Below are positions 13,325-14,780 of a DNA stretch of 64,000 bases, in pieces. The stretch lies in the NCBI GenBank assembly GCA_030390025.1, contig CM059431.1:150724001-150788000 (forward strand). The letters are read 5' to 3'. Origin of the DNA: Squalus acanthias. Its lineage: Eukaryota. A model generated the notes under the pieces. It worked only from the letters and a program-made list of their open reading frames with translations, was not told the DNA's origin and did not search any database. The translations under genes were made by a program, and so were the position numbers. Each line of letters opens with the position of its first letter. Positions within the stretch are counted from its first letter, which is position 1.

Positions 13325-14780
13325 CAATATTTATCCCTTCAGGCACTTATGCAATTGCCTTTTGAAAGCCACGATTGAATCTGCCTCCACCACCCTTTCA
13401 GGCAGTGCATTCCAGATCCTAATCACTCGCTGCGTAAAAAACTTTTTCCTCATGTTGCCTTTGCTTCTTCTGCCAATCACCTTAAATCTGTGTCCTCTGG
13501 ATCTCGACCCTTCCGCCAAAGGGAACAGTTTATCTCTGCCTACTCTGTCTAGACCCCTCATAATTTTGAACACTTCTATTAAATCTCCTCTCAGCCTTCT
13601 CTGCTCTAAGGAGAACAACCCCAGCTTCTCCAGTCTATCCACGTAACTGAAGTCCCTCATCCCTGGTAAATCTTTTCTGCACCCTCTCTAAGGCCTTCAC
13701 ATCCTTCCTAAAGTGTCGTGCGCAAAATTGGACACAATACTCCAGTTGATGCCGAACCAGTGTTTTATAAAGGTTCAACATATCTTCGTTGCTTTTGTAC
13801 TCTATGCCTCTATTTATGAAGCCCAGGACCCCGTATGCATTTTAACCGCTTTCTCAACCTGCCACCGTCAACGATTTGTGCACATATACCCCAGGTCTCT
13901 CTGATGATGCACACCCTTTAGGATTGTACCCTTTAGTTTATATTGCCTCTCCTCGTTCTTCCTACCAACATATATCACTTCGCACTTTTCTGCGTTAAAT
14001 TTCATCTGCCACGTGTCCACCCATTCCACCAGCCTATCGATGTCTTCTTGAAGTCTATCACTATCCTCCTCACTGTTCACTATACTTCCAAGTTTTGTGT
14101 CATCTACAAATTTTGAAATTGTGTCCTGTACATCCAAGTCCAAGTCATTAATATCAAGAAAAGCAGTGGCTCGAGTACCGACCCCTGGGGAACACCACTG
14201 TATATCTTCCTCCAGTCCAAAAAACAACCTGCTCACCACTATTCTCTGTTTCCTGTCACTCACCCAATTTCGTATACATACTGCCACTGTCCCTTTTATT
14301 CCATGGGCTTCAAATTTGCTGGCAAGCCTATTATGTGGCACTTTATCAAACGCCTTTTGGAAATCCATGTACACCACGTCAACCGCATTGCCCTCATCAA
14401 CCCTCTCTGTTACCTCATCAAAAAACTCGATCAAGTTAGTTAAACACGATTTGCTTTTAACAAAACTGAGAAGTCGCACAGCACCAGTTTATAGTCCAAC
14501 AGTTTTATTCAAAATTACGAGCTTTCGGAGCTGCTGCCCCTTCGTCAGGTAGAAGTACCTCTACCTGACGAAGGTGCAGCAGCTCCGAAAGCTCGTAGGT
14601 ACCTCTACCTGACGAAGGGGCAGCAGCTCCGAAAGTTCGTAATTTTAAATAAAACTGTTGGACTATAACCTGGTGTTGTGCGACTTCTCATTTTTGTCCA
14701 CCCCAGTCAAACACCGGCATCTCCGCATCATGCTTTTAACAAATCCGTGCTGGCTTTCCTTAATTAATCCACACTTGTCC
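13325..14780 (-). mobile_element. CR1 LINE RT fragment, interrupted by a Penelope-like insertion
   Basis: KSCLTNLIEFFDEVT, YMDFQKAFDKVPH, FVDDTKL and RLEKLGLFSLEQRRLRGDLIEVFK motifs. Confidence 0.92.
14465..14730. mobile_element. Penelope-like insertion with inverted terminal repeat and three hammerhead motifs
   Basis: 13-bp TSD tgcttttaacaaa at 14452-14464 and 14731-14743. Palindrome centred on gtac (14555-14558). Hammerhead motifs at 14516-14551 (-), 14562-14597 (+) and 14606-14641 (+). Confidence 0.85.

What the first reader, a model, noticed from the sequence alone, without database searches (positions are those of the whole stretch)
14465..14730. Compact triple-hammerhead cassette: tandem ribozyme dimer plus antisense copy in a 266-bp Penelope-like insertion
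Seen: a TSD-bounded insert whose left arm (14468-14554) is the reverse complement of the right arm. A 44-bp duplication in the right arm places two sense hammerheads 8 nt apart, and a third lies on the minus strand. Known: inverted partial terminal repeats are a Penelope hallmark, and minimal hammerheads need a partner to form stem III. Inference: the tandem pair could self-cleave in cis (AGCU pairing with AGUU) and release a 44-nt monomer, like a miniature retrozyme. The minus-strand copy, which has the cleanest fold, is in the sense of the ART pre-mRNA intron. Caveats: a U-U mismatch in one stem II, and the long hairpin may sequester the cores.
Basis: partly seen in the sequence, partly recalled or inferred. 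Interest (0 to 1): 0.72.

Follow-up and report, generated by a model that had tools for sequence, protein, structure and literature searches.

The report
Penelope stump with locally duplicated hammerhead
A 266-letter leftover of a very common Penelope-like jumping gene carries three copies of its small hammerhead ribozyme motif, because it landed as a mirror-image pair (a known habit) and one 44-letter piece got doubled; folding predictions say the copies are zipped into a hairpin, so it is most likely an ordinary, inactive insertion with a local quirk.

Summary
In detail: a 266-bp insert (14465-14730) with a perfect 13-bp target-site duplication, a zero-spacer palindrome (centre 14556|14557), a 44-bp tandem duplication and three minimal type I hammerhead motifs. 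It sits in a CR1-type LINE fragment inside a predicted 10.4-kb intron of an ART gene. Two single-hammerhead copies of the same family lie in the window. Inverted tail-less arm, palindromic junction, 40-bp tail and target duplication are the published Penelope-like (PLE) insertion anatomy; only the hammerhead-only 44-bp doubling is unusual. The functional reading is weak. In any read-through RNA the motifs are zipped into a ~90-bp hairpin (active folds cost +27 to +79 kcal/mol). In the isolated right arm a 9-bp junction hairpin hides the core (+7 to +16). Each sense copy has one private, uncompensated change in a stem. A 44-nt monomer needs two cuts. Whether the doubling recurs elsewhere could not be settled: no genome is held and no listed contig spans the locus. 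Most likely a one-off integration or slippage product. The scan earlier noted palindromic mini-PLE insertions in another genome (e1-7858806).

The parts
14452..14464 (.). Left target-site duplication, 13 bp; its last 5 bases also continue the inverted arm (microhomology with the element)
   Evidence: empty-site joint
14465..14556 (-). Inverted, tail-less arm of the PLE terminal repeat (hammerhead unit A0 plus downstream part B0); 4 private substitutions (14481, 14488, 14510, 14554)
   Evidence: 14554 polarised table 3
14516..14551 (-). Minimal type I hammerhead A0 (C3 at 14548; 3-bp stem I, 5-bp stem II, AGCU palindrome); base-paired to the right arm in any read-through RNA
14548..14565 (.). 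Palindromic inversion junction, no spacer, centre 14556|14557; one mismatch (14554)
14554..14597 (+). 44-bp duplicated unit A1: hammerhead only (C3 14565, predicted cut after 14594), ends 3 nt past the cut; private U at 14575 breaks a stem II pair
14594..14614 (+). A1/A2 junction; forms a 9-bp bulged hairpin (-5.6 kcal/mol) that hides C3-G8 of A2 and beats the active stem I (-2.9)
14598..14641 (+). Unit A2: hammerhead (C3 14609, predicted cut after 14638); private U at 14636 turns the AGCU palindrome into AGUU
14642..14690 (+). Downstream part B of the terminal repeat
14691..14730 (+). 40-bp 'tail', present on this end only
   Evidence: definition in PMC8557442 and PMC11167929
14731..14743 (.). 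Right target-site duplication, 13 bp
13868..14761 (-). Host CR1-type LINE reverse-transcriptase fragment interrupted by the insert (limits approximate; the CR1 label is recalled, the RT domain is shown)
   Evidence: (RVT_1, E 8e-13)
3186..3313 (+). Plain single-hammerhead copy of the same family, with tail (comparison copy)
12081..12169 (-). Plain tail-less copy of the same family with a 9-bp TSD; core U4->C; ends at the same internal point as the inverted arm (comparison copy)
10642..11438 (-). Catalytic exon of an ecto-ADP-ribosyltransferase (ART) gene
   Evidence: PF01129, E 1.2e-47
21878..21923 (-). Predicted signal-peptide exon of the ART gene; places the insert in a ~10.4-kb intron
   Evidence: prediction only

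Best explanation
It is a dead-on-arrival, ORF-less insertion of the hammerhead-bearing terminal repeat of an abundant Penelope-like retroelement, and the third hammerhead is a locus-level accident. Shown: layout B'A' | A1 A2 B tail between 13-bp target duplications. Inferred steps: (1) the PLE protein nicked both strands of an AT-rich site 13 bp apart; (2) one strand primed reverse transcription at the tail end, the other at the internal, tail-less start with the help of a 5-6-nt microhomology to the target end; (3) both cDNAs stopped at the same short self-complementary 5' sequence, which annealed or folded back and gave the spacer-less palindrome; (4) during that resolution, or soon after by slippage at the hairpin apex, 44 bp were copied twice through a 1-nt microhomology; (5) the insert has since drifted neutrally (about 7 private changes in 266 bp). 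As RNA it is a long double-stranded hairpin, not a ribozyme: the antisense arm pairs with A2+B (or A1), so the two sense hammerheads are never free together, and the minus copy is always paired.
For: Anatomy equals the published PLE pattern: inverted 5'-truncated copy, palindrome at the junction, 30-40-bp tail on one end, 8-10-bp TSD (PMC8557442; PMC3846280). Two adjacent RT start sites and nicking/extension of both strands shown in vitro for a PLE (PMC11167929). The four 3' ends of this family in the window fall at two points 40 nt apart, two each. Opposite-strand hammerhead pairs already reported (PMC4209133). Family very abundant, while depth falls from about 5.5 million in part B to about 2,300 at the palindrome centre in run X1 (the tool warns this is no copy number). 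Other inverted copies have other junctions (14549->14666; 14531->14683). A1/A2 differ at 2 of 43, arms at 6 of 92, Fisher p = 1.0, so the doubling is about as old as the insertion within wide error. Both private changes in A1/A2 hit hammerhead stems with no compensation. Folding: whole insert one hairpin, -175/-183 kcal/mol; active folds +27 to +79 kcal/mol in it.
Against: No direct test of uniqueness: no genome held, public prokaryote/viral/metagenome scans blank, no listed contig spans the locus and only 15 of 160 joints were shown. Twelve X1 contigs share this element's 5' context at 14554, so a subfamily with this 5' end exists and could include duplicated copies. The first unit ends 3 nt past the predicted cut and the junction restores a 4-5-bp stem I, which could hint at an RNA-level origin, although the palindrome produces that pairing automatically. 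The energy model ignores Mg2+, tertiary contacts and proteins and penalises multiloops; no active double hammerhead was folded as a control. A PLE protein can assist its hammerhead.
Confidence: 0.75

Rival explanations
1. Accidental but chemically competent cis ribozyme: the doubling creates a circularly permuted, type III-like core (stem III 14590-14593/14634-14637, stem I hairpin 14595-14608, stem II 14617-14630) that cuts slowly after 14594 when an RNA starts inside the insert and lacks the left arm. One cut, no monomer, no biological role. Compatible with the best explanation on origin.
For: All 13 pairs of the inner core are standard or G-U and its catalytic bases are intact. It is the cheapest active fold, +7.4 kcal/mol in a 57-nt piece. 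Artificial dimers and trimers of a minimal PLE hammerhead showed low cleavage (PMC4209133).
Against: A 9-bp junction hairpin hides the core in the minimum-energy and centroid folds. No promoter or RNA start inside the insert is known. 8 of 9 natural frog dimers did not cleave.
Confidence: 0.25
2. A replicating mini-retrozyme subfamily: a 44-nt hammerhead-only unit that is excised by double cleavage, circularised and re-inserted by the PLE machinery, this locus being one of many.
For: Two tandem units each with a core meet the operational definition in bioRxiv 2026.07.22.740005 (TRF detects it); that work derives animal retrozymes from PLE terminal repeats and lists family units down to 51 bp. 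The unit boundary lies 2-3 nt from the cut site.
Against: The TSD brackets the whole PLE stump, not the tandem. Only two units. The 44-nt monomer folds into two non-hammerhead hairpins, linear or circular. Double-hammerhead fold +14 to +16 kcal/mol without the left arm. No 44-nt skip or back-jump among the 15 of 160 joints and 12 of 86 insert-joints shown (weak). Expressed animal retrozymes have 220-400-nt units and canonical cores (PMC7229834).
Confidence: 0.06
3. Assembly or long-read artefact: the palindrome caused a fold-back or a locally doubled 44-mer in the assembly.
For: PLE inverted structures are known to trouble assemblies (PMC8557442). No independent record spans the locus.
Against: The two units differ at 2 of 43 positions, each private to one copy; the arms differ by 6.5%; both TSDs are intact. 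An echo of one molecule would give identical copies (P about 0.001 at an assumed 0.1% error).
Confidence: 0.05
4. Host-used element: the intronic hairpin (or the minus-strand hammerhead) regulates the ART pre-mRNA, for example through double-stranded RNA editing or small-RNA production.
For: The insert lies in a predicted ART intron and gives a ~90-bp duplex on the ART-sense strand.
Against: No sign of constraint: about 2.6% private change spread over the insert; it sits inside a LINE fragment in a repeat-filled intron; no orthologous copy seen in the four runs laid.
Confidence: 0.04

Closest known systems
Penelope-like element insertions with inverted pLTR, junction palindrome and tail (Arkhipova et al. 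2013, PMC3846280; Craig et al. 2021, PMC8557442; passages read)
   Same: Inverted 5'-truncated copy next to a direct copy, palindrome at the junction, 30-40-bp tail on one end, short TSD, 'two direct and one inverted' repeat arrangements.
   Different: No ORF here; the extra direct repeat is only the 44-bp hammerhead and is cut off 3 nt after the cleavage site, not a 5'-truncated whole pLTR; TSD 13 bp against 8-10 bp in the rotifer examples.
Minimal type I hammerheads of metazoan PLEs (Cervera & De la Pena 2014, PMC4209133; main text parts 1-3 of 4 and supplement parts 1-2 of 3 read)
   Same: Matches the published consensus position by position: CUGANGA, extra base before G10.1, G10.1-C11.1, GAAA, palindromic 15.2/16.2, NUH, short helix I, AU-rich 3' flank; opposite-strand pairs were reported.
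   Different: Natural same-strand pairs there are about 3 kb apart; here they are 44 nt apart, close to the authors' artificial dimer. No cartilaginous fish among the species names seen in their alignment.
Animal non-LTR retrozymes (Cervera & De la Pena 2020, PMC7229834, passages; Li, Clavereau & Pollet 2026, bioRxiv 10.64898/2026.07.22.740005, parts 1-3 of 5)
   Same: Tandem units each with a type I hammerhead, derived from a PLE terminal repeat.
   Different: Unit 44 bp against 51-972 bp (220-400 nt where circles were shown); two units only; embedded in a palindrome that pairs with them; no evidence of a family, of expression or of circles.
PAc, Poseidon PLE of Anolis (Frangieh et al. 2024, PMC11167929; parts 1-2 of 4 read)
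   Same: Two RT start sites that define the tail; both strands cut and extended; AT-rich target; hammerhead near the repeat's end.
   Different: PAc is a full element studied in vitro; its hammerhead cleaved only with protein and was not needed for insertion. The palindrome and duplication steps proposed here are not shown there.

Membership tests
Penelope-like element insertion (truncated) | Target-site duplication | tested here: met
   13 bp identical; empty-site joint
Penelope-like element insertion (truncated) | Inverted 5'-truncated copy adjacent to the direct repeat, palindrome at the junction | tested here: met
   definition
Penelope-like element insertion (truncated) | 30-40-bp tail on one end only | tested here: met
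   14691-14730 on the right only; plain copies show both end types
Penelope-like element insertion (truncated) | Hammerhead motif in the terminal repeat | tested here: met
Penelope-like element insertion (truncated) | Repeat is the pLTR of an element with an RT plus GIY-YIG ORF | not testable with these tools
   No such ORF is attached here and no genome is held. Earlier scan notes report intact PLEs with paired minimal hammerheads in this genome (e1-7857333, e1-7806196); I could not check that they are this family.
Minimal type I hammerhead (PLE min-HHR) | Core CUGANGA + extra base + G10.1-C11.1 + GAAA + NUH | tested here: met
   3 of 3 copies against the consensus
Minimal type I hammerhead (PLE min-HHR) | Palindromic positions 15.2-16.2 for a dimeric stem III | tested here: met
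   AGCU in A0 and A1; AGUU in A2, which pairs with one G-U
Minimal type I hammerhead (PLE min-HHR) | Helices I and II intact and accessible | tested here: not met
   A1 has U-U in stem II; in the whole insert all are sequestered. Alone, P(stems I+II, free core) = 0.08, 0.004, 0.014 against 0.13 and 0.34 for the two plain copies.
Minimal type I hammerhead (PLE min-HHR) | Self-cleavage as a dimer | not testable with these tools
   Needs in vitro assay
Non-LTR retrozyme | At least two tandem units, each with a hammerhead core | tested here: met
   definition
Non-LTR retrozyme | Unit length in the known range (51-972 bp by consensus; 220-400 nt for expressed circles) | tested here: not met
   44 bp
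Non-LTR retrozyme | Unit forms a dispersed or arrayed family independent of the PLE | tested here: inconclusive
   One dimer in 64 kb; no genome; reads table truncated
Non-LTR retrozyme | Expressed as linear and circular monomers made by double cleavage | not testable with these tools
   No RNA holder on record and no raw RNA reads; folding argues against

The most novel reading that the evidence does not exclude
PLE integration itself can spit out a hammerhead-only 44-bp tandem that self-cleaves in cis, the shortest natural double hammerhead and a visible first step in the birth of a retrozyme from a PLE terminal repeat; if the junction recurs at other loci it is a mobile mini-retrozyme below the known size range.
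Probability: 0.07. Interest if true: 0.6.

Novelty: new member of a known kind. Interest (0 to 1): 0.2.

Why it matters
As it stands it matters little: it is one of very many PLE terminal-repeat stumps. It is a tidy illustration of the two RT start sites and the palindromic junction in one 266-bp piece, and a ready-made natural construct for asking how close two minimal hammerheads may be and still cleave in cis. It would matter more if the 44-bp doubling recurred or cleaved, because the step from a single PLE repeat to a tandem retrozyme is proposed in the literature but not caught in the act.

Tried and rejected
Whole-genome search: no genome held. Family patterns in viral contigs, metagenome contigs and prokaryote genomes: 0 matches each; these collections are not expected to hold vertebrate DNA, so this says nothing on copy number. 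Rfam: nothing at gathering score, no hammerhead model among 11 weak matches; the miRNA-model hits only reflect the long hairpin and were rejected. Sequencing runs: no RNA holder listed; best holders had 0.51 of the words, so they may be a related species. Run X21 (raw DNA reads) gave only 17 reads at 90-95% and was uninformative; X15 is only guessed to be RNA and is kept as contigs, so it cannot show ends. Early idea that A1 and A2 share a derived base at the position matching 14554 (which would date the duplication after insertion): weakened, because G stands there in 2,259 of 2,282 summed depth in X1; both readings remain open since the plain window copies agree with A0. Earlier-findings look-ups by sequence, by relatives and two by words returned nothing. 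Lunse et al. on PLE hammerhead dimers is not held; only its title and a review's summary were seen. Literature searches for a shark PLE hammerhead or retrozyme description, PLE palindromes and twin priming in PLEs gave no paper on a hammerhead-only tandem at a PLE inversion junction; the library lacks most subscription papers and the bioRxiv supplement with retrozyme families of a cartilaginous fish was not seen.

Full report
What is there. The insert 14465-14730 (266 bp) lies between two identical 13-bp repeats inside a LINE reverse-transcriptase fragment (RVT_1, E 8e-13; 'CR1' and 'shark' are my recall and earlier scan notes, not tested). Contigs from three public runs show the empty site with a 279-bp skip and 13 shared letters, which confirms the TSD at family level. 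The layout is B'A' | A1 A2 B tail. The left arm (14465-14556) is the reverse complement of A2+B with 6 differences in 92 nt. It meets the right arm with no spacer. A is a 44-bp unit present twice on the plus strand (TRF period 44, 2.0 copies, 95%). The last 40 bp are present on the right end only. Two plain copies of the same family lie in the window: about 3186-3313 (+, with tail) and 12081-12169 (-, tail-less, 9-bp TSD). The four 3' ends fall at two points, two each, 40 nt apart.

The hammerheads. Each A unit carries CUGACGA, one extra A, a 5-bp stem II, GAAA, a two-base palindrome and a NUH triplet. This matches the published consensus of minimal PLE hammerheads (PMC4209133 supplement). Rfam does not detect them. 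Between the plain copies and this element, stem I changes on both sides (CAC/GUG to UAC/GUA), which suggests that the parent family keeps the fold under selection. Within this insert the changes are of another sort: A1 has a private U that makes a U-U pair in stem II, A2 a private U that turns AGCU into AGUU; neither is compensated.

What is known. An inverted, 5'-truncated copy adjacent to the direct repeat and a 30-40-bp tail on one end are described as typical of PLEs (PMC8557442, passages). Palindromes at the inverted junction, 8-10-bp TSDs and 'two direct and one inverted' repeats are described in PMC3846280 (passages). Hammerhead pairs on opposite strands 100-700 bp apart, the need for dimers, and low cleavage of artificial dimers and trimers are in PMC4209133 (main text parts 1-3 of 4; supplement file 2 parts 1-2 of 3; file 1 not searched). 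A purified PLE protein cuts and extends both DNA strands and starts reverse transcription at two sites that define the tail; its hammerhead cleaves only with protein and is not needed for insertion (PMC11167929, parts 1-2 of 4). A 2026 preprint derives animal tandem retrozymes from PLE repeats, lists units of 51-972 bp, includes one cartilaginous fish, and found cleavage in 1 of 9 natural dimers (parts 1-3 of 5; supplements not seen, and they may list short shark units). Expressed retrozyme circles are 220-400 nt with canonical cores (PMC7229834, passages). So two of the three hammerheads are expected from standard PLE anatomy; only the 44-bp doubling needs explaining. Seven searches gave no paper on such a doubling; that is limited by the library.

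Could the tandem cleave? The double hammerhead can be drawn: stem III 14590-14593 with 14634-14637 (one G-U), an inner core with a stem I hairpin and A2's stem II that would cut after 14594, and an outer core with A1's damaged stem II and a 3-bp stem I that would cut after 14638. Cost of forcing these folds against the free ensemble: inner core +7.4 kcal/mol in 14586-14642, +9.4 to +11.4 in longer right-arm pieces, +27.2 in the whole insert; outer core +9.5 to +12.0, and +74.5; both cores +14.0 to +16.4, and +78.9. The cause in the short pieces is a 9-bp bulged hairpin across the junction that hides C3-G8 of A2 (-5.6 against -2.9 kcal/mol for the active stem I). In the whole insert the cause is the long hairpin (-174.6 plus strand, -182.8 minus strand). 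The 44-nt monomer folds into two non-hammerhead hairpins, linear or circular. Caveat: nearest-neighbour energies ignore Mg2+, tertiary contacts and proteins and penalise multiloops, and I folded no known active double hammerhead as a control; the values for short pieces are therefore soft, those for the whole insert are not.

Is the doubling a family feature? Not settled. No genome is held. Four collection scans were blank. Of 24 listed runs the best held 0.51 of the words. Four were laid on 14300-14900 at 90% likeness (43,671; 29,943; 2,627; 17 records); no listed piece spans the stretch, and the tables show 40 of 44 substitution rows, 15 of 160 joints and 12 of 86 joints with inserted letters. 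What they do show: part B is covered at summed depth about 5.5 million in X1 but the palindrome centre at about 2,300 (not a copy number, by the tool's own warning); 12 contigs carry G at 14554 (2,259 of 2,282), so this 5' context exists in other copies and the ancestral centre was probably a perfect palindrome, making the unit an exact 44-mer with one base of microhomology; other inverted copies join at other points (14549->14666, 14531->14683). No 44-nt skip or back-jump is among the joints shown, which is weak evidence. An earlier scan note on another genome (e1-7858806) concluded that such mirror halves are built anew at each insertion; the differing junctions here agree, but I tested that only in part.

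Age and reality. Private substitutions, judged from the five aligned copies and the read table, number 7 in 266 bp (14481, 14488, 14510, 14554, 14575, 14636, 14709; I left out 14466, a junction base, and 14691, which is polymorphic in the family). A1 and A2 differ at 2 of 43, the arms at 6 of 92 (Fisher p = 1.0). The doubling is thus about as old as the insertion, within wide error, and is unlikely to be an assembly echo.

Gene context. The ART catalytic exon (PF01129, E 1.2e-47) has a phase-1 acceptor at 11439. A filter for hydrophobic ATG exons with a phase-1 donor found one site in the 52 kb upstream, 21923-21878 (two nested ATGs); spliced, it gives a 280-aa open frame. The insert is therefore in a predicted 10.4-kb intron, minus strand in ART sense. 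There it would be a ~90-bp double-stranded stretch of pre-mRNA. The tail-less plain copy in the same intron has a U4->C core change.

Most likely mechanism (confidence 0.75). Shown: anatomy, TSD, two end types, microhomologies, drift. Inferred from PMC11167929 and PMC3846280: both target strands were nicked and primed, one at the tail and one at the internal start; both cDNAs ended at a short self-complementary 5' sequence; annealing or fold-back made the palindrome; a second copying of the first 44 bp, during resolution or by early slippage at the hairpin apex, made the tandem. The apparent 'repair' of stem I at the junction follows from the palindrome and needs no selection. The product is an inactive hairpin. 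Rivals: a weak single cis cut in an RNA lacking the left arm (0.25, compatible with the same origin), a mobile 44-nt retrozyme (0.06), an assembly artefact (0.05), host use of the hairpin (0.04).

Verdict. A correct and sharp observation of a known kind of insertion with a local oddity. Novelty: new member of a known kind. Interest 0.2. The boldest reading not excluded, a cis-cleaving 44-bp double hammerhead marking the birth of a retrozyme, has probability about 0.07 and would deserve 0.6.

Noticed in passing
window 10642-11438 and 21878-21923 (-): Ecto-ADP-ribosyltransferase gene: predicted signal exon plus catalytic exon give a 280-aa open frame that stops within the catalytic exon, so no separate GPI-anchor exon is needed; possibly a secreted ART.
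   Followed up: partly
window 12081-12169 (-): Second family copy in the same predicted intron, inserted in another LINE fragment, tail-less, 9-bp TSD, with a U4->C change in the hammerhead core.
   Followed up: partly
window 3186-3313 (+) against 14598-14730: Two subfamilies of the repeat differ by a two-sided change in hammerhead stem I (CAC/GUG against UAC/GUA) and in the cleavage triplet (CUU against CUC).
   Followed up: partly
window 14765-14819: A second local tandem (19 bp x 2.9) only 35 bp downstream of the insert, at the end of the LINE fragment; the neighbourhood may be prone to short duplications.
   Followed up: no
window 14823-14900: Start of another very abundant repeat (summed contig depth in the millions in three runs, sharp 5' edge at 14823).
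   Followed up: no
window about 23900-51500: A ~27-kb GC-rich (60%), strongly strand-skewed satellite-like array of short degenerate units that gives many long low-complexity open frames.
   Followed up: no
window 1836-1865 (+): A lone hammerhead-like core pattern (CUGAGGA, short hairpin, GAAA) outside this family, upstream of an RT fragment at 1942-2448 (-); could belong to another repeat family or be chance.
   Followed up: no
window 8716-10600: Two adjacent minisatellite arrays directly downstream of the ART stop codon.
   Followed up: no
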